A stretch of DNA of 64,000 nt from an uncultured Candidatus Saccharibacteria bacterium (GTDB lineage Bacteria > Patescibacteriota > UBA1384 > CAYGGE01), in assembly GCA_964349485.1 (NCBI GenBank), contig CAYGGE010000001.1:69204-133203 (forward strand), read 5' to 3'. Below the pieces are notes generated by a model. It saw nothing but the letters and a program-made list of their open reading frames with translations. It ran no database searches and had not been told where the DNA came from. This document shows positions 1 through 17,207 of this stretch, piece by piece (within the stretch, counting starts at the first letter, position 1; each line of letters begins with the position of its first letter). The translations under genes were made by a program, and so were the position numbers.

Positions 1-176
1 GGGAGAGATCCAGGAATTCATCCGCTTGACTCGCGGGTACTACTCGATCTCTTTCTGGGACGCTCAACACGCGACCCCGGGGATGGTCCGAGACGTAACT
101 GCCGGCACTCGACGCTGGCGCCGGTAGAATTCGCCGCAAGGCATGATCGTCCGTGAACAACGGACAGAGGGTAATC

Positions 177-803
177 ATGAGAACGAATGTGATAATTGGT
201 GGCTGTGTCATAGCTTTGGCTGGCGGCATAGGCCTGGCCTTAATGATGACCCGATCGATGGTAGAAAAGGCCGGCGGGCGCGAGATCGTGGTGCCGGCAG
301 AGTTGCCAACACATCCCCCTACCAACGCACCCATCGTCGCCAACACAGAAGGCGGCGAGAACCTGACGGCGTCTCTGAGCGAGAATGGCAAGACCATCCT
401 GCTCATGGATAGCAAGCATGAACTGCGGACCAAATGGGAGCAAGATAAGGTGTCTGACAACCACGAGAAGGTTGTCTCTCTCGCCTTCTCCCCGAACGGC
501 TCCCGTCTGGCGGCGATCTACGAGGACGGCTACGTCCACCTCTGGAACGTCGGCATGCGGGAAGATGCCGACTGGCGGTTCGGTTGGGAGGTTCTGCCCA
601 CTCGTAAGCGAGCCGGCCGGCGTCACATTGTCGAATACGCGGACTACGCCGAGGTGGTAAAGGGCGCTGAAGTCAAATACAGCGTCGTGAAGATCGACGA
701 GGCAGAGCGAGTCGGCAGCTACCGGCTCGAGGAGCGGTACACCGAGGGAGTCGGTTACTCCCTCATCGTCAAGGATGTCACCGTCGATGATGGCATCCCG
801 TAG
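177..803 (+). CDS. Membrane-anchored protein, first member of a tandem paralog family. It has an N-terminal TM helix and a single WD40-like motif (FSPNGSRLAAIYEDGYVHLWN). Alternative GTG start at 153.
   Basis: ORF track 153..803. GAGGGT RBS 6 nt before ATG at 177. The SPNGSRL..DG.V.LWN and C-terminal TEGVGYSL motifs are shared with the ORFs at 1101 and 1963. Confidence 0.55.
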   Translation: MRTNVIIGGCVIALAGGIGLALMMTRSMVEKAGGREIVVPAELPTHPPTNAPIVANTEGGENLTASLSENGKTILLMDSKHELRTKWEQDKVSDNHEKVVSLAFSPNGSRLAAIYEDGYVHLWNVGMREDADWRFGWEVLPTRKRAGRRHIVEYADYAEVVKGAEVKYSVVKIDEAERVGSYRLEERYTEGVGYSLIVKDVTVDDGIP

Positions 804-827
804 GGCCAGCTTGGCCCGAAGCATCAG

Positions 828-856
828 AAGCCCTGTCCCCTGTGGACAGGGCTTCT
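828..856 (+). terminator. Stem-loop terminator after paralog 1 (GAAGCCCTGTCC-cctgt-GGACAGGGCTTC)
   Basis: Perfect 12-bp inverted repeat read directly in the sequence, immediately downstream of the stop at 803. Confidence 0.6.
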
Positions 857-891
857 CGCGTATCATAGAGCTATTTTGAGCCTGTTAGTCC

Positions 892-919
892 TTGACAGAT
901 GGCCATTATCGTGCTACAA
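892..919 (+). promoter_or_regulatory. Sigma-70-like promoter: TTGACA (892-897), 16 nt spacer, TACAAT (914-919)
   Basis: Near-consensus -35 and -10 hexamers read in the sequence, upstream of the paralog-2 leader. Confidence 0.55.
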
Positions 920-966
920 TCTCCGGTTAACGATGGCTATTCTGCCTGCCTTAATAACTAAATAAA

Positions 967-1013
967 CTTACGGTGACTCAATTCTCTAACTTAGCGAGCT
1001 GAGTCACCGTAAG
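967..1013 (+). promoter_or_regulatory. Leader-region stem-loop with 14-bp perfect arms (CTTACGGTGACTCA / TGAGTCACCGTAAG) and a 19-nt loop, in the 5' UTR of paralog 2
   Basis: Inverted repeat read directly. It is not followed by a T-tract. It lies between the promoter at 892-919 and the RBS/ATG at 1101. Confidence 0.5.
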
Positions 1014-1100
1014 CAACTGCTTGCGAATACGGTGTACACTCGCGCCGCAAGGCGCCCCTACCCGTCCGCGCAAGCGGACACACTCTTGAAGGAGAGTGAA

Positions 1101-1841
1101 ATGACACGACAGACCAAGGACTACTTGCTCCTTGCTTTCATCACGCTGACCGCACTCCTCGGTGGGGTGATGATCGGGAGAAACTACCCGAGCCAGGCAA
1201 ACGACGAGCAGGAGATCGCCGCCGGCCCGACCCACGCCCAGGCGACGGCCCCAGATGCGGGCACTGAAGAGGGCTACACCGCCACGTCGGCGGATGAGAC
1301 CCTCAACGCTGACCTATCTGTGGACAAGAAGAGCATCGGGCTATTCGATAAAGAAGGGAAACCGCTGCCAGTCAAGTGGGATCAGGGCTCGCTCGCGAGT
1401 CATGGGACCATCACCGACGCGGAATTCAGCCCCAACGGCTCACGGCTCCTCGTGCTCTACTCTGATGGTTATACGCATCTCTGGAATTCGGCGGCCGACT
1501 ACCGTAACGGCCTGGACTGGGCCAAAGGCTGGTCGGTCTATCTACCGCAAGGTGATGACGCAAGTACCGTAAGTACAATCACCGAATACAAAGACGATAA
1601 GGAGGGTGACACAGTCTACAGCGTCGTCGGGCTTAGTAGCGGTGACCTAGACGTGACCCTGATTCTTTCAGAGACATTCACCGAGGGAGTCGGCTACTCC
1701 CTCACCGCCACCAAGGTGGAGGACACGCCGGCCAGCACCCTGCCCAACGGCGGCGAGGGCGATCCTGGCCCTCCTGTCGACGAGAAGCCCGCGCCGGCTA
1801 CTACCAAGCCGGCACCGATCAAGAAAGGGACCAAGGCCTAG
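1101..1841 (+). CDS. Membrane-anchored paralog 2 (FSPNGSRLLVLYSDGYTHLWN ... TEGVGYSL) with a Pro/Thr-rich C-terminal tail
   Basis: ORF track 1032..1841. Strong RBS GGAGAG before ATG at 1101, and the upstream part of the track ORF covers the leader hairpin. Paralogous to 177..803 and 1963..2655. Confidence 0.6.
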   Translation: MTRQTKDYLLLAFITLTALLGGVMIGRNYPSQANDEQEIAAGPTHAQATAPDAGTEEGYTATSADETLNADLSVDKKSIGLFDKEGKPLPVKWDQGSLASHGTITDAEFSPNGSRLLVLYSDGYTHLWNSAADYRNGLDWAKGWSVYLPQGDDASTVSTITEYKDDKEGDTVYSVVGLSSGDLDVTLILSETFTEGVGYSLTATKVEDTPASTLPNGGEGDPGPPVDEKPAPATTKPAPIKKGTKA

Positions 1842-1873
1842 CTGGCCGCGGTCCCCTACCACACGAGCACAAG

Positions 1874-1900
1874 AGGCCCGACCCAGCTGGGTCGGGCCTC
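1874..1900 (+). terminator. GC-rich palindromic hairpin downstream of paralog 2 (GAGGCCCGACCCAGCTGGGTCGGGCCTC)
   Basis: 13-bp inverted repeat read in the sequence. There is no clear U-tract. Confidence 0.45.
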
Positions 1901-1962
1901 GCTCAAATCTAGGTAAGGCAAGGATGCCTCTATCGCTCATCTCGAAAGAAGGAGAAGTGAAC

Positions 1963-2655
1963 ATGAGCGTTGAATCTGAGGACCAAGAGGAGCAACCGAT
2001 CGCTTACTGGTCAAGCGAGATCGAAGTCTTCGAGCGTCAGGCATTCATCACCGGTTATCGGCAAGCGATGGAAAAAGCTTTCTCGCGAACAATGCTAGCA
2101 GTCTGTGCCGTCGGCTTTCTGGGTAGCTTCTTCGGAGCTGCAGCTAGTCACTGGACAAACCAGCAGCAAGCTGCCGTGCGACCAACAGTCATCGCGCCGC
2201 TCGACATCCCCCCTACCCTACCAATTACCGAAAAACAGGTTGGTTCGGATGATGTTCGGGTAATGATCGAGGACGACACGATCAAACTGACGCAGTCTGA
2301 TGGCATAAGGCTACCGACCAACTGGCGTCAAAACCGGCACGGGAAACCACTGTCGACCAGCCTCTCGCCGAACCGGAGCCGGCTCGCAGTCAGTTATATG
2401 GACGGTCAAGTCTGGCTCTGGAACATCGCCATGCGCAACGCCCCTACTTGGGCCGACGGCTGGCAGGTGCTACCGGCGAAGGAAGGGGTCGTCCGGACAC
2501 TGACCAGCTATGAGGTGGCGGACGACGGCGAAGTCCAGCGACACCGACTGGTCATAAGCGAGAATCTCCAGCCCATCCCTTTCCTCCTCACCGAGCGGTT
2601 CGATAAAACTGCCGGTAAGGGAGGCGGTTATGTCCTCGACGTAGCCGTAGAATGA
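1963..2655 (+). CDS. Membrane-anchored paralog 3 (LSPNRSRLAVSYMDGQVWLWN ... WADGWQVLP)
   Basis: ORF track 1924..2655. RBS GAAGGAGAAG before ATG at 1963. Motif is conserved with paralogs 1 and 2. Confidence 0.6.
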   Translation: MSVESEDQEEQPIAYWSSEIEVFERQAFITGYRQAMEKAFSRTMLAVCAVGFLGSFFGAAASHWTNQQQAAVRPTVIAPLDIPPTLPITEKQVGSDDVRVMIEDDTIKLTQSDGIRLPTNWRQNRHGKPLSTSLSPNRSRLAVSYMDGQVWLWNIAMRNAPTWADGWQVLPAKEGVVRTLTSYEVADDGEVQRHRLVISENLQPIPFLLTERFDKTAGKGGGYVLDVAVE

Positions 2656-2661
2656 AGCAGG

Positions 2662-2692
2662 CCGGCCCCCCGAGTGCGGGGGGCCGGTTTTT
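2662..2692 (+). terminator. Rho-independent terminator (CCGGCCCCCCG-agtg-CGGGGGGCCGG followed by TTTTT)
   Basis: Perfect 11-bp GC stem plus T-run directly after the stop at 2655. Confidence 0.8.
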
Positions 2693-2750
2693 GCTATCCG
2701 AGCGTAGTCACCTATGCTATAATTCAACTACAACATAAGGTGGGGAGACT

Positions 2751-3224
2751 ATGCAGTATAAGGTACCGCAGCATATTGACGAGGAAGATAAGATCCTCGG
2801 TCCGTTGACGTTTATTGACTTTATCTACCTTTTAGTTGGCGGAGCGCTGATTCTGTTTTGCTTTGTCTTGTTCGATTTTGGTCTCTTTCTCTTCCTCGCT
2901 ATCCCGATCGCTCTCCTATCGGCCGCATTGGCGCTAATTAAAGTCCAAGATCAGCCCTTTAGTCGATTTCTGGTAACATTTCTGCTCTACTTACGTCAGC
3001 CAAAAAGACGGGTTTGGGCTGATCTTGAAGCCGAAGAGGATGAAACAGCCAGCCAGCTACTCGATATTGTTGCCGATCGTGAGGTCAAATTTGCGAGGAA
3101 GGCAGGTAATACAGCATCGGCAGCTACAGCCCCACCATCACCGACTGTTATTAAAACCGATGCCTCGCCGATTGTTTATCCTACCAAACCCGCTCGCAGG
3201 GTCCAAGTCACCTTAGCCTCGTAG
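2751..3224 (+). CDS. PrgI/VirB3-like small membrane protein of a type IV secretion system
   Basis: N-terminus (QYKVPQHIDEEDKILGPLTFIDFIYLLVGGALILF) followed by two hydrophobic helices resembles the PrgI/VirB3 family. It sits immediately upstream of the VirB4 ATPase. Confidence 0.55.
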   Translation: MQYKVPQHIDEEDKILGPLTFIDFIYLLVGGALILFCFVLFDFGLFLFLAIPIALLSAALALIKVQDQPFSRFLVTFLLYLRQPKRRVWADLEAEEDETASQLLDIVADREVKFARKAGNTASAATAPPSPTVIKTDASPIVYPTKPARRVQVTLAS

Positions 3225-3232
3225 GAAGTATC

Positions 3233-3862
3233 ATGACCAAGCCTTCCCCTACTCAACACTACCTCAACCTAGCCGATATAAAGGATGGTTGTTTGGTTCT
3301 GCGTAATGGCGAGGTAAGACAAGTACTGATTGTGAGCGCTCTGAACTTTGCTTTAAAGAGCGAACAGGAACAGTCAGCGATTATTTATCAGTATCAAGCC
3401 TTCCTAAACTCACTGCCCTTTTCGATCCAAATCGTCGTTCAATCACGACAGCTTGACCTAACGACCTACCTCGCCAAGCTGAAAACCCAGGCCGAGCAGA
3501 CCACTAACCTGGCTCTCAAGGCTCAGATGCTTGAGTACCTCGACTTCGTTGGCCGGCTGGTGACTTTAGGCAATATCATGGAGAAACGATTTTATGTAGT
3601 AATCCCCTACGCGACGGCGGCTGCCCGCACGAGAAGCCTGTTTGGCCAACTATTGAAACGCCAGACGGTCTTTATCGAAGAAGCAGAGTTTAAGGTCGCT
3701 AAAGCCAAGCTCGACGAACGGGCCGAATCGATTCGCCAAGGCTTGGGCAGCATGGGTCTAGTGGCTAATGTGGCGACTAAAGAAGAAGTGGCAAAGATGT
3801 TGTACCAAACCTATAACCCGATCGAAACAGGAGAGGTAGCGGTCAGTCCGCTCGCATCATGA
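3233..3862 (+). CDS. virB4: VirB4/TrbE-family conjugative ATPase, N-terminal (CagE_TrbE_VirB-like) portion. It is probably the 5' part of a single virB4 gene interrupted by a -1 frame change.
   Basis: Sequence (LADIKDGCLVLRNGEVRQVLIVSALNF ... ) resembles VirB4 N-termini. It ends in a TGA that overlaps the ATG of the next ORF (ATGA at 3859-3862). The downstream frame is already open from 3817. Confidence 0.6.
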   Translation: MTKPSPTQHYLNLADIKDGCLVLRNGEVRQVLIVSALNFALKSEQEQSAIIYQYQAFLNSLPFSIQIVVQSRQLDLTTYLAKLKTQAEQTTNLALKAQMLEYLDFVGRLVTLGNIMEKRFYVVIPYATAAARTRSLFGQLLKRQTVFIEEAEFKVAKAKLDERAESIRQGLGSMGLVANVATKEEVAKMLYQTYNPIETGEVAVSPLAS

Positions 3863-5673
3863 ACAAGACTAAACAGCCCAAACAAGTTGAGACCCCCAAA
3901 ACCAGCCCGATTACCAGTGCCATGAACGCCATCGCGCCGGCAGCTTTTCTGATGACCGCCGACCATATCCAGCTTAACAACCTGTACGCCAAGACATTAT
4001 TCGTCTATACCTATCCCCACTTCCTCGAGACCAACTGGGTCTATCCACTAATTAATTTAGATATTCCGATGGATATTTCTTTCTTTATCTATCCGATCGA
4101 CAGCAACAGTCTACTCCCCCAGCTTCGCCGGAAATCGACCCAGCTCCATGCCAGTTTTAGTATCGAGCAGGATAAGGGCTTGGTACGTAACCCAGAGCTT
4201 GAGGCCGCGATTACCGATATCGAACAGCTTCGCGACACCTTAGTTCGGGGTGAAGCTCGACTGTTTCACTTAGGATTATACTTCACAATCTATGGCAAAA
4301 CACAGGAAGCGCTCTCGTCGGGCATCAAACAGATTGAGTCGTACTTGAACGGCGCCCTTATTTACACGAAGCAGGCCTTCTTACAGATGGAACAAGGTTT
4401 TAACTCGACCCTACCGATTGGCACCGACGAACTAGCCATCACCCGCAACCTCGACACTGGCTCGCTGTCCACCACCTTCCCCTTTACCTCGGCCTCCTTG
4501 ACATCCAACGAAGGTATCCTCTACGGCATCAATCGACACAATAATTCATTGATACTGTTTGACCGATTTAACCTTGAAAATGCCAATTCGCTGATCCTCG
4601 GTAAGGCTGGAAGCGGTAAAAGTTACTTAGTCAAACTAGAGATCTTACGGACCCTCATGATGGGTACCGACGTGATCGTTATTGACCCTGAGAATGAATA
4701 TCGGGCCTTGGCTGAGACCCTAGGTGGGACATACTTGAATTTTTCGATCAATTCCCAAACCCGCATTAACCCACTCGACTTGCCACCGCCTTACGAGGGT
4801 GAAAGCGGTGAGGATATTGTTCGTACAGCGATCGTGACCGCCCGCAGTCTCATATCGCTCATGGTCAACGGCCTCTCGCCAGAAGAAGACGCGGTGCTCG
4901 ATAAAGTGTTGTTGGAAGTTTATAAACGAAAAGGGATCACCACCGATATCGCCACTCACGGCAATCCACCACCACTACTAGCAGATGTCGTCGCCCTACT
5001 CGGTCAGTCGACGGGCATGCAACAGTTGGCGGTTCGTCTTGAACGCTATACTGAAGGGACGCTGTCTGGTCTCTTTAATCAGCCGACCAATATCAATTTG
5101 AATAACGGCTTTCTGGTCTTCTCAATTCGCGACCTTGAAGAACAGCTTAGACCAATTGGTAGTTACATTATCCTGTCGTTCATCTGGAACACCATCCGCC
5201 ACGAACTACGTAAACGAATGCTGGTCATCGATGAGGCTTGGATCTTGCTTCAGCACGAGGACTCAGCCGCCTACCTTTATTCCTTCGCCAAGAGGGCTAG
5301 AAAATATTACCTTGGCATGACCACGATAAGCCAGGACGTGGAAGACTTCTTAGACTCGAAATATGGCCGATCGATCATCAATAACACATCATTACAGATA
5401 CTACTTAAACAGTCGACCTCGGCGATCGATAAGGTAGCTAACGCCTTCAACTTAACCGAAGGCGAGAAACTGTTACTCCTTGAATCAGATATCGGCGACG
5501 GGCTATTCTTCGCTGGGCAAAACCACGTGGCCATTAAAGTCATCGCTTCAGGAATTGAGGATCAGATGATTACCACCAACCCGCAAGAAATTCTGGCCGA
5601 ACGAGCGATCGCCGAGCAAGCCGCAACGCAAGAAGGTACTCAGCCAGCGCGGCCAACTGCGCCGGCCGCTTAG
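3859..5673 (+). CDS. virB4: VirB4/TrbE/PrgJ-family T4SS ATPase (C-terminal ATPase portion)
   Basis: Walker A LILGKAGSGKSY, VIDPENEY and a Walker B-like MLVIDEAWILL. Size plus the upstream N-terminal fragment totals about 810 aa, typical of VirB4. Confidence 0.8.
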   Translation: MNKTKQPKQVETPKTSPITSAMNAIAPAAFLMTADHIQLNNLYAKTLFVYTYPHFLETNWVYPLINLDIPMDISFFIYPIDSNSLLPQLRRKSTQLHASFSIEQDKGLVRNPELEAAITDIEQLRDTLVRGEARLFHLGLYFTIYGKTQEALSSGIKQIESYLNGALIYTKQAFLQMEQGFNSTLPIGTDELAITRNLDTGSLSTTFPFTSASLTSNEGILYGINRHNNSLILFDRFNLENANSLILGKAGSGKSYLVKLEILRTLMMGTDVIVIDPENEYRALAETLGGTYLNFSINSQTRINPLDLPPPYEGESGEDIVRTAIVTARSLISLMVNGLSPEEDAVLDKVLLEVYKRKGITTDIATHGNPPPLLADVVALLGQSTGMQQLAVRLERYTEGTLSGLFNQPTNINLNNGFLVFSIRDLEEQLRPIGSYIILSFIWNTIRHELRKRMLVIDEAWILLQHEDSAAYLYSFAKRARKYYLGMTTISQDVEDFLDSKYGRSIINNTSLQILLKQSTSAIDKVANAFNLTEGEKLLLLESDIGDGLFFAGQNHVAIKVIASGIEDQMITTNPQEILAERAIAEQAATQEGTQPARPTAPAA

Positions 5674-5682
5674 GGACATCTC

Positions 5683-6477
5683 GTGAAGCTTGCGATTGTT
5701 CTATTTATCGGCATCATCTTCTTTGTCGGCCTCCCGCTTCTTATGAGTCCATTCTTCGCCGGCACTGGCGGTCAAGGTGAGGGTGTAAGTAGCGGTGAAA
5801 GCATCGCCGTTAGTCCACAAACTGGGCCACGCACCGACGGCGGCACCACCAGTGATGAAGTTCCTGCCCCACTTAAAAAGCTCTTTGAAGAGGCAGATGA
5901 CGCTACGGATACCTCGACCCCGGCCTCACTCTTAGCGGCCATCTCACACCAGGAATGCGGCCGCCTCTGGACATATACTGAAAAGAATTTACAGATAGTT
6001 CAGACGATTATCGATAACAATGATGACGTAGCTCATGTTCCAGTTGGTCTGGGCGATGCAAAAAGTCGAGTCCATCCTAACTCATGGGGCTGTGGATTTA
6101 AAAATGATTCAAATGTATGGGGGCCGATGCAGTTTCTGGACACAACGTGGGGTATTGCGAGTGGCGCCGACGCAACAACTCACCCAATCCCCCGAGCAGT
6201 CGGCTACGGCGCTAAGGCAAGTCAGTTCACTAACCGCGCTCCAGCCTTTGCCAACCAACCGGTTGTTTCTATGTTGAGCATCAAGGATTCGGTTTACGGG
6301 GCGAGTATCATGCTCTACGAAAACGCCAGTCAGCCAACGGTTTGGACTGAGGCGACAGTTAAGAAAACAGCGGCCAGGTACTACGGCAGTTGTGAGGGTG
6401 AACATGCGTCTTATTGCCAAAACATAGTAAGTAAGTGGCGTCGCTATGCTCCCCAATTTGAAGGAGATACACCATGA
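5683..6477 (+). CDS. Membrane-anchored lytic transglycosylase (SLT domain, VirB1-like) associated with the T4SS
   Basis: N-terminal TM helix. SLT motifs LLAAISHQECG (catalytic Glu context) and GPMQF...TW. GTG start with 9-nt spacing after the VirB4 stop. Confidence 0.6.
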   Translation: MKLAIVLFIGIIFFVGLPLLMSPFFAGTGGQGEGVSSGESIAVSPQTGPRTDGGTTSDEVPAPLKKLFEEADDATDTSTPASLLAAISHQECGRLWTYTEKNLQIVQTIIDNNDDVAHVPVGLGDAKSRVHPNSWGCGFKNDSNVWGPMQFLDTTWGIASGADATTHPIPRAVGYGAKASQFTNRAPAFANQPVVSMLSIKDSVYGASIMLYENASQPTVWTEATVKKTAARYYGSCEGEHASYCQNIVSKWRRYAPQFEGDTP

Positions 6478-7466
6478 GGAAGCTTTGGGAACAGGTCCGT
6501 CACTACCAGTATTGGATTATCCTTGGTGTCGTCTTAATCGCCGTATTGTTTAGCCTATTCAACCGTCGCTCAAATCCGTCTGCGCCAACTGGCACACCCG
6601 CCAAGACGCCTTCAGCCGTCACACCGCTGTCACGCTCCCCGGCAGCAATCAAACAACCAGTAAGCGATAGCCTGGATACCCTTTCGAACCATCCATTTCC
6701 TGCAGCCGCACTCGATGTAAACACAAAAACGATCGTCTACCACGACTTCGATAACGATGCATTTAAGCGATATACACTAAGTAGTGGGGCTGAACAGACC
6801 ATCGCTAAGGCCTCCGTCTACCTCACTAAAGCTCTGTGGTCACCCGACTTTACAACCCTCATCATTCAAGCCCTCAATGAAGTTGGTCGAGTAGGCACCA
6901 ACCCGTTTTATAGTGAAGCTCGACCTTTTGGGAGTACAGTTGTCGGCTCATACAAGTTACAAACCAAGCGATTCACTCCGCTCAACCCTAACATAAAAGA
7001 GATTGCCTATATCAGTCCCCAAGAAATTATCTATCAGTTTAACGACGGCCGACACAATAACATTTCAGTCGCCCAGGTTGATGGCAGTGCTTGGAAAAAT
7101 ATCAGCCGTCCGAAGGGTGAGGTGGCACTTCGTAACGCTGGCTACACGGCACTGCTTCAGGAGGTCGGGCAACCAAAGATCACTCGACATGGAGCTAATG
7201 GGAAAGTGATGGAAACAATCGACGTACCGACCGACCTCAAGCTCGCTCAAAGTAGTTGGACTGGGTCTGGTCGACAGGCACTGTACTGGATCGAGGAAGA
7301 TGGGCAGATCGCTATCAAACAGCTACGCGCCAATAAAAGCGAACTAGTGGCCACTGTTACGCTAAACACTGAAGATTTAGTCATTTTGTGGGATAATGAA
7401 ACAGGTGAGGTCTATCTGGCCAATTTTGACGGCCTGTTCAAACTCAATAGTATTGCCAAACCATAG
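6474..7466 (+). CDS. Membrane-anchored extracytoplasmic protein with TolB/PD40-like beta-propeller features (WSPDF motif)
   Basis: ORF track. N-terminal TM helix. WSPDF motif shared with the next ORF. 4-nt overlap with the upstream gene. Confidence 0.45.
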   Translation: MRKLWEQVRHYQYWIILGVVLIAVLFSLFNRRSNPSAPTGTPAKTPSAVTPLSRSPAAIKQPVSDSLDTLSNHPFPAAALDVNTKTIVYHDFDNDAFKRYTLSSGAEQTIAKASVYLTKALWSPDFTTLIIQALNEVGRVGTNPFYSEARPFGSTVVGSYKLQTKRFTPLNPNIKEIAYISPQEIIYQFNDGRHNNISVAQVDGSAWKNISRPKGEVALRNAGYTALLQEVGQPKITRHGANGKVMETIDVPTDLKLAQSSWTGSGRQALYWIEEDGQIAIKQLRANKSELVATVTLNTEDLVILWDNETGEVYLANFDGLFKLNSIAKP

Positions 7467-7473
7467 GACACCC

Positions 7474-8640
7474 ATGAGTCGACTTTACCTGTCATTAATC
7501 TTAGCTTTCATTGCCCTGGGTCTAGCTGGCTTTGTTTTTTGGCGCTATTTCTACCTTGGAACTCTAGTTTTAGATCTTGTTCCCACTCAGGCGACCGTCA
7601 CTCTGAATGGAGTGGCCGTGCCCGATCGGACGTTGCATTTGCGTCGGGGAACGTACGAGGTAACGGTCAGCGCACCTGGCTATCGCAATGAGTCATTCAC
7701 TCACACATCTAGCCTCGGCAGACAGGCCAATAAACGACTAGAGCTCGTCTCGCTCCCTCGGCCAAAGCTGATACTGGATGGGGCTATTAGTTCAGTGGCC
7801 ACCAATGCTGAACGGACTCACCTATTTTTCGTCAAAGATCATACTCTCTATCGCCTTAACTTAGCTGTCGCTGGACAACCCGCCCAAGCGATCACTCCGA
7901 AGCTAGCTGGTATCGTTCGAGTCGATTGGTCGCCTGACTTTGCGTTAGCGATTCTCTACAAAACGAATGGCGAAGTAGGACTATACGACTTTAATCGCTA
8001 CGATCTACTCAATCAAAGTTACAAAGTGCTCGGCCAGACAATCACGGCAACGACCTGGGAGGCTGACGGTAGCGCCTACTACTACCTCAATCAATTACCC
8101 GATGGCACGAACCTCTTAGTCAAGGCCGATCGGTCAGGGACTGACATTGCTCGTTACGATCACATTGGCGTGCCAGCTGGCACAAAAGTTACCTTAGTCA
8201 GCGGACCAGCCAATCAAGTCTTAATCACCGGAACAGACCGTCAGAGGCCGAACGATATTATCGTTAGCGATAACTACACCCGAACGATCACCCCGCTAAC
8301 CACTAGTCAAAATGCTTTTGCCCCTGTCCTCTCCCCCTCCAAGAAATATCTTGCCTATCTTGAGAATGGTGAGTTAGTCGTTGCCACAGCTGCCGGCAAA
8401 GATCGACGGAATACGAACCTGAGGCCGAGAGCCAATAGCTACGCTTTTGTTTCCGAAACCAGCCTCGCTGTACTCACTGCCAACATGATCAGCTTAATTA
8501 ACCCCCAAACGGGAGAGACCACGAGTCACGAGGTTTACGCCCCCGATGATACGATTACGGCACTTATTGCGAGTGCTGATGGCAAGGTAGTATCCTATGT
8601 CTACAAAGGCAATCTATTTGCCCTACCTCTTGGCCGGTAA
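7474..8640 (+). CDS. Membrane-anchored TolB-like beta-propeller protein
   Basis: ORF track 7396..8640. More likely start at ATG 7474 (MSRLYLSLILAFIALGLAGFVFW), just after the upstream stop at 7466. WSPDF motif. Confidence 0.45.
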   Translation: MSRLYLSLILAFIALGLAGFVFWRYFYLGTLVLDLVPTQATVTLNGVAVPDRTLHLRRGTYEVTVSAPGYRNESFTHTSSLGRQANKRLELVSLPRPKLILDGAISSVATNAERTHLFFVKDHTLYRLNLAVAGQPAQAITPKLAGIVRVDWSPDFALAILYKTNGEVGLYDFNRYDLLNQSYKVLGQTITATTWEADGSAYYYLNQLPDGTNLLVKADRSGTDIARYDHIGVPAGTKVTLVSGPANQVLITGTDRQRPNDIIVSDNYTRTITPLTTSQNAFAPVLSPSKKYLAYLENGELVVATAAGKDRRNTNLRPRANSYAFVSETSLAVLTANMISLINPQTGETTSHEVYAPDDTITALIASADGKVVSYVYKGNLFALPLGR

Positions 8641-8648
8641 GGAGCAGT

Positions 8649-9866
8649 ATGGCCAAGCGAAAAACGAGTCAATTCCCCGTTCTGACTAAATTCCAACAAC
8701 AAGCCGAGACGACAGCAGCTCGTTTGGCTCGTCTTGAGGCCGAAAATTTGGCCCGTTCCTCGGGAGCAAGTCGGTTTGCTGGGCGTAAGTTGGTAGCCAC
8801 CGCCACCCGCGTCGGTCAACAACTTGCCGATACAGAGAAAGAGACGGACCAAGAGCGACGACCTGAGGAGATATCTCCCCAGGAAGTTCGTGAGGTCTTT
8901 GCCGAGAAACAAGCCAAGGGTCAGCAAGTCCAGGCAACTAAAGTTCAAGAAGTAGCCCGCAACGCCGCTAGGCAAGAGATCCGCCAAGTTGGCAAAGCGA
9001 TTGCCAAGCAATTTACCCGTCAGGCCTTAGCCACCGCCACTAAAGCATTGTTGACCAATCCATATGTATTAGCCGTCCTAGCGGTCATCGGCCTTGCCGT
9101 TATGATCATTGTATTGATCTTCGCGATTGGACTAGGCGCTGCTGGGTCTGATCCGGCCATTAGCGGGACCAGTGTCCAACAGCCAATCGACCCCGTAAGC
9201 CATGGCGGGACGCTGAAAAGCGTTTTGGCCGGCTCAGTCCGTTCGGCTACCGCCGCAAAGACTTTACTCGCTGAACTTCAGAAACTACGTAAGCGCTTCG
9301 ACACTAACCCTGCCGCCACTAGCACGATTAATACCCTCCAAAAAGCGGCTGAAGCGATGATTGCCAGTCCAAACGACCAGACTGTTTTAGCCGAAAAGAG
9401 CGCCGTCATCAGTGCCGAAATGGCCGAATTACTGGCGTTATTGACCATGCCGGAGCGAATTGCGATTACTGCTCTCTCTAAGGTTACCGATCCGACCGAA
9501 AATTATTACGCACCTAACCCCACTCGGGCCTGTGCCGCTTTTGTCGGCAAGATCCTTCGCGAAGTAAAGGCCGTTCCCACGGTCTGTTCCTTCCGTGCAG
9601 TTACCTTAGCTAGCGAGGTCGAAAAGTTTGGGGCCACCCGAATCATCGCCGACAATACTCCGCTCAATCACGGTTCAGTTAGTCAGCTAGCGGCTGGCGA
9701 TATCATCTTCTTCAATAAAAAGCCTGGTTACTATGGCCATACGGGCATCGCCATCGGTGGTGGCGAGATGGTCGACACTAGCTCATCGGAGCGAAAGGTT
9801 AAGAAGCGACCGGTTATGGATCTTAGTAACGATTATCAAGCGATCAGTTCATTTCGGTTTAATTAA
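8649..9866 (+). CDS. Bitopic cell-wall hydrolase with a C-terminal NlpC/P60- or CHAP-like domain (a PrgK/TcpG-like T4SS hydrolase)
   Basis: Coiled-coil N-terminal region, TM helix (PYVLAVLAVIGLAVMIIVLIF), then a Cys...His pair in NPTRACAAFVGK ... YYGHTGIAIGGGEMVD, typical of NlpC/P60 or CHAP. Confidence 0.5.
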   Translation: MAKRKTSQFPVLTKFQQQAETTAARLARLEAENLARSSGASRFAGRKLVATATRVGQQLADTEKETDQERRPEEISPQEVREVFAEKQAKGQQVQATKVQEVARNAARQEIRQVGKAIAKQFTRQALATATKALLTNPYVLAVLAVIGLAVMIIVLIFAIGLGAAGSDPAISGTSVQQPIDPVSHGGTLKSVLAGSVRSATAAKTLLAELQKLRKRFDTNPAATSTINTLQKAAEAMIASPNDQTVLAEKSAVISAEMAELLALLTMPERIAITALSKVTDPTENYYAPNPTRACAAFVGKILREVKAVPTVCSFRAVTLASEVEKFGATRIIADNTPLNHGSVSQLAAGDIIFFNKKPGYYGHTGIAIGGGEMVDTSSSERKVKKRPVMDLSNDYQAISSFRFN

Positions 9867-9867
9867 T

Positions 9868-12576
9868 ATGCAACAATTATCCCAAGCACAGTCGCGCCTC
9901 AGTCAGCTAGCCAGGACAACCGGTCTACTAGGTTTGTTATTGGCCTTAGTATTGACATCACCACTGGATACACTTGGACAGCAAATCGATGAGACTATCG
10001 ATGATCCGGTAATCGTCTCTAACCCAGTGCCCATCGATGCCGACCGCTTGACCAGCCTCTCGACCCTCCTCTCGACGAAGACAACGCTCGACGATGCCGT
10101 AGCTAATCCAGCTATCGTCTTAAACGAGCAGGATTGGCGGGATTGGCAGAACCTCGAGGGCAAGGATCTCTCGATTTATGATAAACGAATCATGACTGGC
10201 CTCTTGCCGGGCTTAGTTAACGAAGTCGGACCGGGTTTTGAACAAGTCGTGGTTGATCGAGTAAGACGTGGCTATACCGACGAGACGACGGCAATCAGCC
10301 GGAAACTGCCCGACTCAACCAATATCAGTCAGCACTACTATGGCAAAGCCGTATCGCTTACGTCCTTAGGAACAACCCGATGTCAAAATGGATCAGCCTT
10401 CTTTCCACAGTTGATCGATGCGAAATTACCGGTTTGGGTTCACTGGCAGACCGGCGAGGCGGACAAGCAAACTGTCCGATGGCCCTTGGCCCGTAGTTTT
10501 GACGGCCTTATCAAGCATATCTTCTGGCTAGAGGGTCGAGCCCTGACCGAGACGCCGATCGCCGCTGAGACTTGGTCAGATTTCCTGATTGCCATCGCCA
10601 AGAGTGAATTGGAGCAACGGTTCGGGTTAAGAAAAGGTAGTCTAAACAATGTGCCTATTGATGACCTCGATGTGGCATTAGCCAGTGGCCGTCTAGCTAC
10701 TGCCCTCGGCTTAACTGATTTGCCAATCGGAACAACCAAAGCCGAGCTTTTCGAATCAATTGGCCGTCGAAAAGCCGAGGTTGAGCTTAATCTACCGATT
10801 TACGCCTTCGAGGGAACAACTTGGACCGCCATTTATCGAACAATTGGTCAGCGAGTCCTAGAACATGAACTTGGCTTGCCCGATGTCCCGATCAGTAGTC
10901 TAGTCACCGCCGATAATAGTACTGATCCGAAGCTCGCCTTTGGGGGTGAGGCCCGTTTTGGAGCGCTGGCAGACGCAATTGGAGAACGTCAAAACTACTA
11001 TAGTGACTTACGAGTCGCCCTTAATCTGCCAGTCGGTGAGTATTTAGCTTCCAGTAGTGGGTTAGCTTTCCCGGATCGACTGCTCCTGGGTGATGCTGGA
11101 GCGTTCACGACGCTTGGTGCCTACTTTCTGGCTGATAGTCTCGATCTTTCGCCTGGCGACACCAAAACCTTGGTCGAGAATCTAGATAATGACCAGACGA
11201 CCAGTGATCGAGTCATCAACCTTAAAACCGCCCGCCCGATTGACCCAGCCATCAGACCCGAGACACTGTTTAATCTTGAAGTTTCAGACCAACCAAAACT
11301 CTTCGAATCGATTGGCCAACAGGCCGAGTCGACAATCAGTAGTCACCTGCCGCGACTTAACGAGGACGTCTTACAGGCGATGAAGGGTAATAATAAGATT
11401 CCAGAGTTAGGACAGATTATTTCGACCCTAAGTAACGCTAAAGGACGCCAGGCCATCTTAACCAAGATTGCCAGCGCCAGTATCGCCGATGCCAATTATC
11501 AAGGGAACCTGACCAAAGCCGCCCTACAGAACCGAGGAAGGGCGCTGTTCGCCGGAACGATCGGTCTTTCACCCGATGCAATTAGTAGGGTGGAACAGAG
11601 TAAAGCTACGCCGATCGAACTCGAACAGACCGTCAGTACAGTCGCCGACGCGATGGGTTGGCCATCACCCTATGATTCGCGGGTGGCTACGACCGACAAG
11701 ACCTTAATCGAAGATCTGCTGGGGAGCGTCGGTAGCTCTCTCGCCCCAAACGCTACGATAGCCTTAAAGCGCCGCTTACTGACCGCTGGCGCCCATCAGC
11801 TGTGGAACCAGTTAGATATCCCAAAAAGTCTCGTCGATAGTTTGGATCGTTACTTCTTTCTCGGCCAAGCCCTAGCCACACCGGCAAGACTGCCCAGTAC
11901 CAGCCAAGGGACGTCAGACAGCGACGAAGGAGAGACTATTCCTGACGACTTCTTTTCCTCAATAGAGACACAGGCTCCGGTCATCCACCAAATCAGTCAA
12001 GCGACTAGCCTGCCCGAAGCCGATATCACCTACTTCTTCACGGGCCAGATGAGGCCAGCCCTAATTCGAGCGACGGCCGCTTTGGTAGGTCGCGAGCTAA
12101 ACGATGCAGGGACCATGACACCGGCTGAGGTTATCAAACTTCTCGACACCAGTGCGACCGACCTTGGCAATCAACTGGTCAGTCAACCGACAGCCCCTGA
12201 TGTGCTTGGCCCGACATTTCTCGACTTAGCAAAGAAGGCCATCGCGGCCGATGATCCATATAAATTATGGGATGCCTTTCAGGGCGAGATGGTTTACCAG
12301 TGGAATATGGCCTGCCAAGACAAGCAGACCTTAGCCGAAACAGCCATCAGTCGTCTAATCAGTTACCTCATCTCCTTACCTGACAGCAGTCAAAATCAAG
12401 AAGATGTTCCCACTACCCGGCCGGTTCAGATCATGACCCTAAAGGGCTCTGCTGGACTGGCGGGAGGAATTAGCTCGAAGATTAAGGAAGCCTATCCGAA
12501 TGCGGATGGCGAGAACTATAAATACGGTTTATATGCCTTTGCCAGAGGTTGGGATAATGTTTATATTGCGTACTAG
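9868..12576 (+). CDS. Large (about 900 aa) signal-anchored surface/secreted protein of unknown function at the end of the T4SS operon
   Basis: ORF track 9733..12576. More likely ATG at 9868, right after the upstream stop at 9866 (MQQLSQAQSRLSQLARTTGLLGLLLALVL). No recognisable catalytic motifs. Confidence 0.5.
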   Translation: MQQLSQAQSRLSQLARTTGLLGLLLALVLTSPLDTLGQQIDETIDDPVIVSNPVPIDADRLTSLSTLLSTKTTLDDAVANPAIVLNEQDWRDWQNLEGKDLSIYDKRIMTGLLPGLVNEVGPGFEQVVVDRVRRGYTDETTAISRKLPDSTNISQHYYGKAVSLTSLGTTRCQNGSAFFPQLIDAKLPVWVHWQTGEADKQTVRWPLARSFDGLIKHIFWLEGRALTETPIAAETWSDFLIAIAKSELEQRFGLRKGSLNNVPIDDLDVALASGRLATALGLTDLPIGTTKAELFESIGRRKAEVELNLPIYAFEGTTWTAIYRTIGQRVLEHELGLPDVPISSLVTADNSTDPKLAFGGEARFGALADAIGERQNYYSDLRVALNLPVGEYLASSSGLAFPDRLLLGDAGAFTTLGAYFLADSLDLSPGDTKTLVENLDNDQTTSDRVINLKTARPIDPAIRPETLFNLEVSDQPKLFESIGQQAESTISSHLPRLNEDVLQAMKGNNKIPELGQIISTLSNAKGRQAILTKIASASIADANYQGNLTKAALQNRGRALFAGTIGLSPDAISRVEQSKATPIELEQTVSTVADAMGWPSPYDSRVATTDKTLIEDLLGSVGSSLAPNATIALKRRLLTAGAHQLWNQLDIPKSLVDSLDRYFFLGQALATPARLPSTSQGTSDSDEGETIPDDFFSSIETQAPVIHQISQATSLPEADITYFFTGQMRPALIRATAALVGRELNDAGTMTPAEVIKLLDTSATDLGNQLVSQPTAPDVLGPTFLDLAKKAIAADDPYKLWDAFQGEMVYQWNMACQDKQTLAETAISRLISYLISLPDSSQNQEDVPTTRPVQIMTLKGSAGLAGGISSKIKEAYPNADGENYKYGLYAFARGWDNVYIAY

Positions 12577-12839
12577 CTTCTCACGTAAAGCTCTTTAACG
12601 ACCGACTCGCCAAAAGCACTATTCAATTGAGCGATGATTGCCTCTTTGCGTAAGACAAGATCTTGGGCCGCTACTGGGCTATGAGCGATAATCGTTAGAC
12701 GACCGTTGCGGTAGCGAATTGGCTCAAACCGACCAGCCGACACTTGTTTCACCTTTGCCAGCACAACGGCAGCATCAATTGACCGGGACAAGCCGTTGCC
12801 GGTTTTCTTTGTGATGATCTGGCTGATTGGTTTAAACAT
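12573..12839 (-). CDS. DUF721-family small protein (DciA-like) downstream of recF
   Basis: 88 aa. Conserved position after recF. Pattern ...RYRNGRLTIIAHSPVAAQDLVLRKEAIIAQLN resembles DUF721. Confidence 0.6.
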   Translation of the reverse strand: MFKPISQIITKKTGNGLSRSIDAAVVLAKVKQVSAGRFEPIRYRNGRLTIIAHSPVAAQDLVLRKEAIIAQLNSAFGESVVKELYVRS

Positions 12840-12855
12840 AGAAAATCTCTTGTAT

Positions 12856-13974
12856 CTACCTTAGTTTCTCAATCTTCGCCTCTTGGCGCAACTTGGTGTC
12901 CAGATAGCTAACTTCAGTCGTAGTAATGACCGCTTGATGGTTACCGATCAACGTCGCCAATTGACCACGACGATCCAGGTCAAGTTCGGAGTAGGCATCG
13001 TCTAACAGAAAGATGAGCGGCACTGGCTCCTTGGCGGCAAGTAGAAAATCGGCCTCGGCCGCCTTGAGGGCGAGGGTCGCCGATCGGAATTCGCCTCGAG
13101 AACCAAAGGTCGAGAGCGGCCGACCATTTAAGACTAAAGTGAAGTCGTCCCGCTGAGGACCATAAAGGCTCGAGCCAGCGCTAATCTCTCGATCTTGAAA
13201 CTGCTCTATTGACCCCCGTAATAGTTCCTGCCACTGGGTAGCTTGTGTGGGACAGTCGGAGGGGTGGCGATATATACCCTTTAATCCACTTCGCTCACTA
13301 ATTGAGGCCGCTTTGTACTCGAGTTGGAGTAATTCTTTTTTACCACTCATCACTTCGTAGTGACGAGTAATGGTCTGATTAATTAGCTGTAGGAAACCTA
13401 CTCTTGAGGCGATAAGATAGCCAGCTTCTTCCACAAAAGAGTCATTCCAAAAATCTAATTGATCGCGGCTCGCCTGACCTTCATCTATTTGACGGAGTAA
13501 GCGGTTTCGTTGACGTAGGATCTTTTGGAGTTGAATCAGATGATAAGCATATCGCCTGTCGCTTTGAACTAGGACCAGATCGAGAAAGTGACGGCGGCTT
13601 TGGGGTGAACCAGCCACCAAATCGATAGATTCGGGTAAAAAGAGTACCACCCGGACATTGCCTAACAGTTCAATCGCCCTCCGCGCCACGCCATTAATTT
13701 TAACCGACTTGCCGCCGCGTAGTTGCTGGGAAAGGGTAACTTCAATCCGAGTCTCACCAATATCCCCCACCAAACGAGCAACATCGCTCTCCCAGGCGAT
13801 TGCCTCCTTGTCCTGTAAGGCCCGAAAACTGCGAGCCAAAGCCAAGAAGCCGATTGCCTCCAAAATATTCGTCTTGCCCACGCCATTCTTCCCAATAATA
13901 GCCGTCACCCGTTCAAAAGTGAAAGTTTGGTCGGAGTAACTTCTGAAATTAGTGAGGTGAAGGGAGGTAAGCAT
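12856..13974 (-). CDS. recF: DNA replication and repair protein RecF
   Basis: N-terminus LHLTNFRSY and Walker A GKNGVGKTNILEAI. Located in dnaA-dnaN-recF synteny. Confidence 0.95.
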   Translation of the reverse strand: MLTSLHLTNFRSYSDQTFTFERVTAIIGKNGVGKTNILEAIGFLALARSFRALQDKEAIAWESDVARLVGDIGETRIEVTLSQQLRGGKSVKINGVARRAIELLGNVRVVLFLPESIDLVAGSPQSRRHFLDLVLVQSDRRYAYHLIQLQKILRQRNRLLRQIDEGQASRDQLDFWNDSFVEEAGYLIASRVGFLQLINQTITRHYEVMSGKKELLQLEYKAASISERSGLKGIYRHPSDCPTQATQWQELLRGSIEQFQDREISAGSSLYGPQRDDFTLVLNGRPLSTFGSRGEFRSATLALKAAEADFLLAAKEPVPLIFLLDDAYSELDLDRRGQLATLIGNHQAVITTTEVSYLDTKLRQEAKIEKLR

Positions 13975-13986
13975 GAGTGTAAAGTT

Positions 13987-14058
13987 CTCTGGTTGTCTAA
14001 TTCGCTTCGCTATCTGGTTGTCTGGTTATGAACTAGAGAACTAGACGACCAGAAAAAC
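13987..14058. repeat. Copy A of a roughly 70-85 bp intergenic repeat element. Core is ..AACCAGAYAGCGAAGCGAA..GACAACYAGAGAAC when read toward the downstream gene. This copy is 13 bp upstream of the recF start.
   Basis: Aligned by eye to the copies at 32761..32832 and 46125..46210. It contains internal CTGGTT/AACCAGA half-site repeats. Confidence 0.7.
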
Positions 14059-14065
14059 CTCGCCT

Positions 14066-16854: not shown

Positions 16855-16924
16855 GACAACCTCCCGGAACCTATTGTTATTACCGACCAACCTTCGTAAA
16901 GTCGTAGCTCCAATAGTCACACAA

Positions 16925-17200: not shown

Positions 17201-17207
17201 GATCGTT

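What the first reader, a model, noticed from the sequence alone, without database searches (positions are those of the whole stretch)
3233..5673. VirB4 ATPase is encoded as two ORFs joined by an ATGA overlap and needs a -1 frame change
The N-terminal VirB4 domain (3233..3862, 209 aa) and the ATPase portion (3859..5673, 604 aa) together equal a normal roughly 810 aa VirB4. The downstream reading frame is already open from 3817, so the two frames overlap for 46 nt. A single-base indel anywhere in 3817..3860 would fuse them. This could be a sequencing or assembly error, a real pseudogenising or regulatory frameshift, or a genuine two-subunit arrangement.
Basis: seen in the sequence. Interest (0 to 1): 0.5.

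Follow-up and report, generated by a model that had tools for sequence, protein, structure and literature searches.

The report
Two-gene VirB4 (TrsD plus ATPase)
The "broken" VirB4 secretion ATPase is not broken: its N-terminal module is a separate TrsD-like gene just upstream of the ATPase gene, a two-gene layout conserved across Patescibacteria, shared with Gram-positive conjugative plasmids and already published, so it is ordinary.

Summary
ORF1 (3233..3862, 209 aa) and ORF2 (3859..5673, 604 aa) share an ATGA stop/start overlap. ORF2 is in the -1 frame, which is open from 3817. Together they align colinearly to a fused 830-aa VirB4.

No frame change is needed, however. All 119 ORF1 homologues found are free-standing (173-330 aa), and the best 120 ORF2 homologues are 586-726 aa. 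In 78 related Patescibacteria loci the two genes are always separate. They occur in all three relative frames, with junctions from a 17-nt overlap to a 1.2-kb gap.

The two closest relatives keep the ATGA. In them the ORF2 frame upstream of the ATG contains stop codons, and substitutions fall on ORF1 third codon positions. The overlap has no slippery heptamer. Four-nucleotide overlaps are common in this window.

ORF1 belongs to Pfam TraC-like (PF26593) and is a remote homologue of TrsD of pSK41/pGO1, where the break point is the same. The TrsD + VirB4 pairing in Patescibacteria, next to the replication origin, was described in 2025 (PMC12102498).

Verdict: a genuine, conserved, already-known two-gene arrangement, probably translationally coupled. 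It is not an error, pseudogene or programmed frameshift. Interest is low.

The parts
2751..3224 (+). PrgI-family (VirB3-like) membrane protein gene, 8 nt upstream of ORF1
   Evidence: Pfam PF12666 PrgI, E 1.3e-9, 38.9 bits against a cutoff of 27. The same PrgI - TraC-like - VirB4 order occurs in the close relatives L084 and L085 and on Gram-positive plasmids.
3233..3862 (+). ORF1: free-standing TrsD-like / Pfam TraC-like (PF26593) protein of 209 aa, equivalent to the first ~200 residues of a fused VirB4
   Evidence: The identical protein P0001 carries PF26593, as do 117 of the other 118 homologues, which are 173-330 aa long (family name). NCBIfam TrsD/TraD hit, E 5e-5, profile positions 29-198 of 201. 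hhalign of the family profile against pSK41 TrsD gives probability 88%, E 3e-6. BLASTP to residues 28-209 of a fused VirB4 gives E 6e-13. The AF2 model has pLDDT 77.7, and 10 of its 11 best PDB fold matches are TrwK/VirB4 of R388, best E 5.4e-4. An AGGAAG Shine-Dalgarno-like motif lies 6 nt before the ATG.
3859..3862 (+). ATGA stop/start overlap: ORF2 ATG at 3859-3861 and ORF1 TGA at 3860-3862. It is the probable site of termination-reinitiation coupling.
   Evidence: Sequence read directly. CATCATGA is conserved in the two closest relatives. There is no SD-like motif within 20 nt; GGAGAGG lies 22 nt upstream. Coupling itself is inferred.
3859..5673 (+). ORF2: VirB4-type T4SS ATPase of 604 aa. 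It holds the second half of the N-terminal domain plus the C-terminal P-loop ATPase domain, and lacks the first ~200 residues of fused VirB4.
   Evidence: NCBIfam conju_CD1110 scores 386 bits against a cutoff of 325, at profile positions 186-734 of 752. Pfam P-loop_TraG, AAA_10 and DUF87 all hit. A Walker A motif GKAGSGKS is present. hhalign places ORF2 residue 105 at TrwK residue 292. The best 120 homologues are 586-726 aa.
8649..9866 (+). Putative cell-wall hydrolase (NlpC/P60 / CHAP) in the same gene string, a VirB1-like role. It is context, not part of the split.
   Evidence: Pfam NLPC_P60 E 6.8e-5 (23.2 bits against a cutoff of 23) and CHAP E 0.0025. Peptidase/lysozyme genes downstream of virB4 are reported for Patescibacteria (PMC12102498).

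Best explanation
This is the normal type IV secretion locus of a Patescibacteria (CPR) chromosome, sitting next to recF-dnaN-dnaA. In this lineage the VirB4 motor is encoded by two cistrons.

The first is a ~210-aa TrsD-like (Pfam TraC-like) protein. It corresponds to the first ~200 residues of canonical VirB4. The second is a ~600-aa protein carrying the rest of the N-terminal domain plus the P-loop ATPase domain. The gene order PrgI(VirB3) - TrsD-like - ATPase is colinear with VirB3 - VirB4.

Shown: the two proteins are separate in every relative examined. The split point is the same as in TrsD/TrsE of staphylococcal pSK41. ORF1 is under purifying selection in its own frame right up to its stop codon.

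Inferred: ORF2 is translated by termination-reinitiation at the ATGA, because it has no well-spaced Shine-Dalgarno motif. This would give roughly equimolar output. Also inferred: the two polypeptides associate non-covalently to rebuild a VirB4-like protomer. In that model the TrsD-like piece supplies the surface that VirB3/PrgI wraps around and that mediates VirB4 dimer contacts in the R388 structure.
For: Free-standing homologues:
- All 119 ORF1 homologues (down to 37% identity) are 173-330 aa, and all but one carry PF26593.
- The best 120 ORF2 homologues (58-100% identity) are 586-726 aa. None carries the N-terminal module.

Related loci:
- A genome scan confirmed 593 of 600 candidate stretches.
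- In 78 loci with both parts the ORF1 homologue always ends at a stop and the ATPase gene starts separately.
- Relative frames 0, 1 and 2 occur in 17, 30 and 31 loci.
- Eight junctions overlap (-17 to -1 nt), 57 have gaps of 0-20 nt, 8 have gaps of 21-150 nt and 5 have gaps above 150 nt.
- In L035 and L047 the gap between the two genes holds an unidentified open frame, of 126 codons and 328 codons (stop to stop).

Closest relatives (ATPase 88%, ORF1 75-76% identity):
- They keep the ATGA.
- 8 of 11 and 9 of 12 substitutions in 3817..3858 fall on ORF1 third codon positions.
- Their ORF2 frame there contains two stops.
- An in-frame 3-nt indel follows the ATG.

Homology to VirB4 and TrsD:
- ORF1 and ORF2 align colinearly and without overlap to a fused 830-aa VirB4.
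- pSK41 has trsD (227 aa), a 14-nt gap, then a 672-aa ATPase.
- The ORF1 profile matches TrsD end to end.
- ORF2 residue 19 aligns to TrsE residue 32.
- Ten of the 11 best PDB fold matches of the ORF1 model are TrwK/VirB4.

Literature:
- TrsD homologues were found in 2,221 Patescibacteria assemblies, 1,664 of them next to virB4.
- The TrsD homologue of Ca. Southlakia epibionticum ML1 is listed as essential, and the T4SS lies near oriC (PMC12102498).
- VirB3 wraps the VirB4 N-terminal domain, and that domain mediates dimer contacts (PMC9259494).
Against: - No direct evidence here that the two polypeptides bind each other or PrgI. No multimer prediction, proteomics or genetics was available.
- Translational coupling is inferred only from the ATGA and from the poorly spaced SD-like motif.
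- The fold match to TrwK is significant but loose (TM-score 0.39-0.43).
- Sequence profiles do not link ORF1 to TrwK directly or to any PDB chain.
- ORF1 scores far below the NCBIfam TrsD cutoff (23 against 200 bits), so the TrsD relationship is remote.
Confidence: 0.93

Rival explanations
1. A sequencing or assembly indel artificially split a single ~810-aa virB4 gene.
For: The geometry alone permits it. A -1 frame offset and a 46-nt stretch open in both frames mean that one base change could fuse the ORFs.
Against: - The identical two proteins are recorded from three sources, NCBI, Logan and ENA.
- The two closest relatives have the same 209-aa + 604-aa pair with the same ATGA.
- All 78 more distant loci are split, with varied junctions and frames.
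- No fused homologue appears among the 119 ORF1 homologues or the best 120 ORF2 homologues.
Confidence: 0.01
2. A programmed -1 ribosomal frameshift in 3817..3860 produces a full-length fused VirB4, alone or alongside the two separate products.
For: ORF2 is in the -1 frame and that frame is open for 14 codons before the ATG.
Against: - There is no X_XXY_YYZ heptamer in the overlap. The only one in ORF1 is at 3352, where the ORF2 frame is closed.
- In the closest relatives the ORF2 frame upstream of the ATG has two stop codons and only 5 of 14 identical residues. The ORF1 frame there has 12 of 15.
- Relatives use all three relative frames, including 17 in-frame cases separated by a stop, and some have intervening genes.
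Confidence: 0.02
3. A recent pseudogenising frameshift: the T4SS ATPase is decaying in this reduced genome.
For: Reduced genomes accumulate pseudogenes, and split genes are a common sign of that.
Against: - Both ORFs are intact and conserved. ORF2 is 88-90% identical to its closest relatives.
- ORF1 substitutions against L084 are distributed 42, 21 and 125 over codon positions 1, 2 and 3, which indicates purifying selection.
- The split is phylum-wide and also occurs on functional conjugative plasmids such as pSK41.
- The TrsD homologue is reported as essential in Ca. S. epibionticum (PMC12102498).
Confidence: 0.01
4. ORF1 is an independent accessory protein that only resembles the VirB4 N-terminus and does not form a composite VirB4 with ORF2. 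For example, it could be an adaptor with its own partners.
For: [quoted passage not shown]
- In a few loci other genes sit between the two.
- TrsD homologues in Gracilibacteria are not next to virB4 (PMC12102498).
- In Embleya the module is fused to PrgI rather than to the ATPase.
Against: - ORF2 lacks exactly the segment that ORF1 supplies, and the two are colinear with fused VirB4.
- Adjacency is tight in 65 of 78 loci, with an overlap or a gap of at most 20 nt.
- Fused, split and PrgI-fused layouts of the same three modules all exist. That is the usual signature of physically interacting partners.
Confidence: 0.05

Closest known systems
Patescibacteria (CPR) chromosomal T4SS with TrsD + VirB4 (Quinonero-Coronel et al. 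2025, PMC12102498; Wang et al. 2023 for Ca. Southlakia epibionticum ML1)
   Same: The components and order match: PrgI/VirB3-like, TrsD-like, VirB4, and a downstream cell-wall hydrolase. The location next to dnaA/dnaN matches: recF is at 12856-13974, dnaN at 14066-15175 and dnaA at 15406-16932. The nearest homologues are all Patescibacteria.
   Different: Nothing substantive; this window is another instance. The passages of the paper retrieved here call TrsD a component with remote homology to the VirB4 N-terminus and no assigned function, and word searches found no mention of a split or truncated VirB4. The complementarity and the junction statistics come from the analyses done here.
TrsD/TraD + TrsE/TraE of staphylococcal conjugative plasmids pSK41/pGO1 (MPF_FATA, pGO1 subclass; NCBIfam NF041427)
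   Same: The three-gene string is the same: a small VirB3-like protein, a ~210-230-aa TrsD and a ~600-670-aa DUF87/VirB4 ATPase. The break point is the same: ORF2 residue 19 aligns to TrsE residue 32, and the ORF1 profile at 7-201 aligns to TrsD at 33-217.
   Different: The sequence relationship is very remote. BLASTP of ORF1 against TrsD is not significant, and the NF041427 score is 23 bits against a cutoff of 200. pSK41 has a 14-nt gap instead of an overlap. It is plasmid-borne, conjugative and has a relaxase and coupling protein nearby.
Canonical single-chain VirB4 (TrwK of R388; CD1110-family VirB4 of Firmicutes, e.g. B. cereus pJ62_2 830 aa)
   Same: ORF1 and ORF2 together cover the whole protein colinearly. 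ORF2 passes the CD1110 cutoff. The ORF1 model matches the TrwK fold.
   Different: There are two polypeptides instead of one. The break falls at about TrwK residue 190-210, inside the 15-400 N-terminal domain defined in the R388 cryo-EM structure. [quoted passage not shown]
Programmed -1 frameshift genes (dnaX, IS3-family transposases)
   Same: Only the geometry is shared: two overlapping ORFs with the downstream one in the -1 frame.
   Different: There is no slippery heptamer, no conservation of the frame relationship, and no coding signal in the downstream frame before its ATG.

Membership tests
VirB4 T4SS ATPase (NCBIfam NF045971 conju_CD1110 / TIGR00929) | C-terminal P-loop ATPase domain with a family-level profile score above the curated cutoff | tested here: met
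   ORF2 scores 386.3 bits against a cutoff of 325 for NF045971. Pfam P-loop_TraG scores 100 bits and AAA_10 and DUF87 also hit. A Walker A motif GKAGSGKS is present.
VirB4 T4SS ATPase (NCBIfam NF045971 conju_CD1110 / TIGR00929) | The N-terminal ~200 residues lie on the same polypeptide as the ATPase domain | tested here: not met
   ORF2 covers only profile positions 186-734 of 752. The missing part is ORF1, which ends at a TGA.
VirB4 T4SS ATPase (NCBIfam NF045971 conju_CD1110 / TIGR00929) | Encoded next to a VirB3/PrgI-type membrane partner within a T4SS gene cluster | tested here: met
   A PrgI gene lies at 2751-3224, and an NlpC/P60-CHAP hydrolase gene at 8649-9866.
Pfam PF26593 TraC-like (free-standing VirB4-N-terminal-like proteins) | Match to the family profile | tested here: met
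   The precomputed Pfam hit PF26593.2 is listed for P0001, which is 100% identical to ORF1, and for 117 of the other 118 homologues. hmmscan against the local Pfam copy returned no PF26593 hit for ORF1, so this rests on the precomputed annotation.
TrsD/TraD family (NCBIfam NF041427) | Profile score above the curated cutoff of 200 bits | tested here: not met
   23.2 bits, E 5.1e-5, although the match runs end to end over profile positions 29-198 of 201.
TrsD/TraD family (NCBIfam NF041427) | Homology to a bona fide TrsD and the same position, directly upstream of the VirB4-like ATPase and downstream of the VirB3-like gene | tested here: met
   hhalign of the ORF1 family against pSK41 TrsD gives probability 88%, E 3e-6, over 174 columns. 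The synteny is identical.
Patescibacteria T4SS (PMC12102498) | VirB4 of the Patescibacteria clade with TrsD and PrgI nearby, chromosomal and close to dnaA | tested here: met
   The closest homologues are all Patescibacteria. PrgI and TrsD are adjacent. dnaA, dnaN and recF lie 7-11 kb downstream. No phylogenetic tree was built.
Patescibacteria T4SS (PMC12102498) | No relaxase in the cluster | not tested
   Only ORFs at 153-15175 and a few others were scanned against Pfam/NCBIfam. No relaxase hit appeared, but the whole window was not screened.
Programmed -1 ribosomal frameshift | Slippery X_XXY_YYZ heptamer inside the overlap | tested here: not met
   There is none in 3817..3862. The only heptamer in ORF1 is at 3352.
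Programmed -1 ribosomal frameshift | Frame relationship and trans-frame coding conserved in relatives | tested here: not met
   Relative frames 0, 1 and 2 occur in 17, 30 and 31 related loci. The ORF2 frame before the ATG carries stops in the closest relatives.

The most novel reading that the evidence does not exclude
The VirB3 - VirB4(N-module) - VirB4(ATPase) trio behaves as three shuffleable modules in monoderm-type T4SSs. All four layouts were seen here:
- three separate genes (this window, pSK41, Geobacillus, C. perfringens);
- N-module fused to the ATPase (B. cereus pJ62_2);
- N-module fused to PrgI with a separate ATPase (Embleya);
- all three fused (Vescimonas).

If the free N-module in Patescibacteria is a regulated or exchangeable adaptor, for example one that sets how many ATPase protomers dock on PrgI, the split would be functionally meaningful for the essential epibiotic T4SS rather than a neutral fission.
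Probability: 0.15. Interest if true: 0.4.

Novelty: already known. Interest (0 to 1): 0.12.

Why it matters
It matters mainly for annotation. Pipelines and readers should not flag this junction as a frameshift, pseudogene or assembly error, and should not "repair" it. The upstream 209-aa ORF should be labelled as a TrsD/TraC-like VirB4 N-terminal module.

Biologically, a full VirB4 motor here requires two polypeptides. This is relevant to anyone reconstituting or modelling the essential T4SS of epibiotic Patescibacteria. The arrangement itself is already in the literature.

Tried and rejected
- The local Pfam scan of ORF1 gave only a chance DUF473 hit. The family PF26593 was seen only through precomputed annotations.
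- A PDB sequence search with the ORF1 family profile gave 0 hits at E <= 10.
- hhalign of the ORF1 profile against TrwK of R388 was not significant, probability 1%.
- BLASTP of ORF1 against pSK41 TrsD was not significant. Only the profile comparison worked.
- An exact-sequence look-up of the window's own two proteins for their source contigs returned nothing.
- The cluster look-up gave no names or accessions, so the source genome is not identified beyond Patescibacteria; the closest named loci include several Saccharibacteria/Saccharimonadia.
- Guglielmini et al. 2014 (PMC4027160), cited for the TrsD-VirB4 homology, does not contain the word TrsD in its main text.
- A multimer or fused-construct structure prediction was considered but not run.
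- The error, pseudogene and programmed-frameshift readings were rejected, as detailed under rival explanations.
Full report
**Observation.** ORF1 runs from ATG 3233 to TGA 3860-3862 (209 aa). ORF2 runs from ATG 3859 to its stop at 5671-5673 (604 aa). The two share ATGA at 3859-3862. ORF2 is in the -1 frame relative to ORF1, and that frame is open from 3817, after TAA at 3814-3816.

The open 46-nt overlap is not unusual. Of all ATG triplets on the + strand of the window, 58% have at least 14 open codons upstream. The ATGA overlap is not unusual either: 5 of 38 same-strand neighbouring ORF pairs in the window overlap by exactly 4 nt, and others overlap by 1 or 8 nt.

**What the two ORFs are.** ORF2 is a VirB4-type T4SS ATPase. 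NCBIfam conju_CD1110 scores 386 bits against a cutoff of 325, but only over profile positions 186-734 of 752. Pfam P-loop_TraG, AAA_10 and DUF87 also hit.

ORF1 hits the first part of VirB4 profiles (CD1110 positions 11-92; VirB4_plasma positions 128-233). It also hits NCBIfam TrsD/TraD end to end at sub-threshold score (E 5e-5).

Direct BLASTP against a fused 830-aa VirB4 of Bacillus cereus plasmid pJ62_2 places ORF1 residues 8-199 on residues 28-209 (E 6e-13). ORF2 residues 5-588 fall on residues 228-830 (E 4e-65). The two are colinear and do not overlap.

An AlphaFold2 model of ORF1 has mean pLDDT 77.7. Ten of its 11 best PDB fold matches are TrwK/VirB4 chains of the R388 T4SS, with best E 5.4e-4 and about 200 aligned columns, though TM-scores are modest.

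Profile alignment puts ORF2 residue 105 at TrwK residue 292. The break therefore corresponds to about TrwK residue 190-210. [quoted passage not shown]

**Is a frame change needed? No.**
- All 119 database homologues of ORF1, down to 37% identity, are free-standing proteins of 173-330 aa, and all but one carry Pfam PF26593 (TraC-like).
- The best 120 homologues of ORF2 (58-100% identity) are 586-726 aa. None is an ~810-aa fusion.
- A scan of one genome per species confirmed 593 of 600 candidate stretches and returned 80 loci. They come from Saccharibacteria, Falkow-, Berkel-, Moran-, Uhr-, Kuenen- and Buchananbacteria and Parcubacteria.
- In the 78 loci that hold both parts, the ORF1 homologue always ends at a stop codon and the ATPase gene starts separately.
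- The relative frame is 0, 1 or 2 in 17, 30 and 31 loci.
- Junctions range from overlaps of 17 to 1 nt (8 loci), through gaps of 0-20 nt (57 loci) and 21-150 nt (8 loci), to gaps above 150 nt (5 loci).
- In L035 and L047 the gap between the two genes holds an unidentified open frame, of 126 codons and 328 codons (stop to stop).

The two closest relatives (ATPase 88% identical, ORF1 75-76%) have the same 209-aa + 604-aa pair and the same CATCATGA junction. Between them and the window, 8 of 11 and 9 of 12 substitutions in 3817..3858 fall on ORF1 third codon positions. The ORF1 frame keeps 12 of 15 residues. Their ORF2 frame there has two stop codons and keeps 5 of 14 residues. An in-frame 3-nt indel follows the ATG.

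The only X_XXY_YYZ heptamer in ORF1 is at 3352, far from the overlap. Sequencing error, recent pseudogenisation and programmed frameshifting are therefore all excluded for practical purposes.

**How it probably works.** ORF1 has an AGGAAG motif 6 nt before its ATG. ORF2 has no SD-like motif within 20 nt; the nearest, GGAGAGG, is 22 nt upstream and encodes the conserved residues G-E-V of ORF1. Other genes in the window do have well-spaced AGGAGG-type motifs. Across relatives only 8 of 79 junctions have an SD-like motif, and most gaps are 0-20 nt.

I infer that ORF2 is translated by termination-reinitiation coupling, which would give roughly equimolar products.

In R388, VirB3 wraps around the VirB4 N-terminal domain, and that domain makes the VirB4 dimer interface (PMC9259494). 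Here the VirB3-like PrgI gene (2751-3224) is immediately upstream of ORF1. I infer that the TrsD-like protein docks on the ATPase chain and on PrgI to rebuild a VirB4-like protomer. This interaction was not tested.

**Comparison with what is known.** The same three-gene string is found on staphylococcal pSK41. It has a small hypothetical gene, trsD (227 aa), a 14-nt gap and a 672-aa DUF87 ATPase. The ORF1 family profile aligns to TrsD over 174 columns (probability 88%, E 3e-6). ORF2 residue 19 aligns to TrsE residue 32, so the break point is the same.

Split layouts with a PrgI gene upstream also occur on plasmids of Miltoncostaea, Clostridium perfringens and Geobacillus; on the Pontibacillus plasmid the same split follows an unnamed upstream gene. 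Of the 57 plasmid records with an ORF1-like stretch, 6 carry an annotation of 'TrsD'.

For Patescibacteria specifically, Quinonero-Coronel et al. 2025 (PMC12102498) report the following:
- TrsD was the most abundant T4SS component recovered by their HMM searches. There were 2,272 homologues in 2,221 assemblies, 1,664 of them next to virB4.
- TrsD is remotely homologous to the VirB4 N-terminus.
- The TrsD homologue of Ca. Southlakia epibionticum ML1 is listed as essential.
- The T4SS often lies near the replication origin.

The window fits the last point. recF (12856-13974), dnaN (14066-15175), dnaA (15406-16932), rnpA and yidC follow the cluster. The arrangement is therefore already known, and this window is one more instance.

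**Membership.** ORF2 is a VirB4-family ATPase by curated cutoff, but it lacks the first ~200 residues. ORF1 is a member of Pfam PF26593 by precomputed annotation. It is a remote homologue of NCBIfam TrsD/TraD but not a member by cutoff. The criteria for a programmed frameshift were tested and failed.

**Novelty and score.** The finding is real but ordinary. It is a conserved and published two-gene VirB4 (TrsD-like + ATPase). Its value is in preventing mis-annotation.

The least ordinary reading still open is that the N-module is a shuffleable adaptor. It was seen free, fused to the ATPase (B. cereus), fused to PrgI (Embleya) and in a triple fusion (Vescimonas). Its separation might matter functionally in the essential Patescibacteria T4SS. 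I give that about 15%.

Noticed in passing
L090 (Embleya plasmid NZ_CP108778.1) 2617-3666; L091 (Vescimonas plasmid NZ_AP023417.1) 2623-5451; L083 (B. cereus pJ62_2) 3420-5912: The ORF1-like module occurs in four layouts across monoderm T4SSs. It is free (this window, pSK41). It is fused to the ATPase (830 aa, B. cereus). It is fused to PrgI/VirB3 (349 aa) with a separate ATPase and an intervening XF1762-family gene (Embleya). All three are fused in one 942-aa 'PrgI family protein' (Vescimonas). Weak NCBIfam SCO6880_fam hits to the window PrgI gene (profile positions 11-83) and to ORF2 residues 98-188 (profile positions 388-476 of 477) point the same way.
   Followed up: partly
L047 4657-5867; L035 4675-5123: In two Patescibacteria loci the gap between the TrsD-like gene and virB4 holds an open frame: 328 codons in L047 (gap of 1210 nt) and 126 codons in L035 (gap of 448 nt). 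Neither was identified.
   Followed up: no
L024 4646-7021; L064 4608-6869; L068 4605-7115: In some Moraniibacteriota-type loci the ATPase gene carries an extra 150-240-aa N-terminal extension. The TrsD-like profile does not match it, and a separate TrsD-like gene is still present upstream.
   Followed up: partly
Proteins P0045, P0050, P0057, P0059, P0060, P0062, P0064, P0071 (homologues of window 3233-3862): A subgroup of ORF1 homologues is 310-330 aa long. The three that were aligned (P0045, P0062, P0071) carry a ~100-aa low-complexity, K/E/Q/T-rich C-terminal tail; the others were not inspected. The C-terminal ends of the family vary freely in length, as expected for a free-standing protein.
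   Followed up: no
window 12856-18763: The T4SS cluster sits next to the replication-origin gene set: recF, dnaN and dnaA on the minus strand, then rnpA (17350-17700) and yidC (17972-18763). This matches the oriC-proximal placement reported for Patescibacteria T4SSs.
   Followed up: partly
window 5683-8640, 9733-12576, 34352-39368: Several ORFs have no family match in the libraries tried. Downstream of virB4 these are 264 and 330 aa, plus a 414-aa ORF with only a weak PEGA hit, and a 947-aa ORF. Two further ORFs of 876 and 807 aa lie at 34352-39368 (Pfam only). The first group may include the VirB6/VirB8-like T4SS components.
   Followed up: no
L006, L007, L010, L013, L016, L018 and about 25 more loci: Many third-party MAG records that carry this Patescibacteria-type TrsD-VirB4 pair are titled 'uncultured Gammaproteobacteria bacterium' or 'Bdellovibrionales'. 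The locus content suggests the record taxonomy is wrong or is a placeholder.
   Followed up: no
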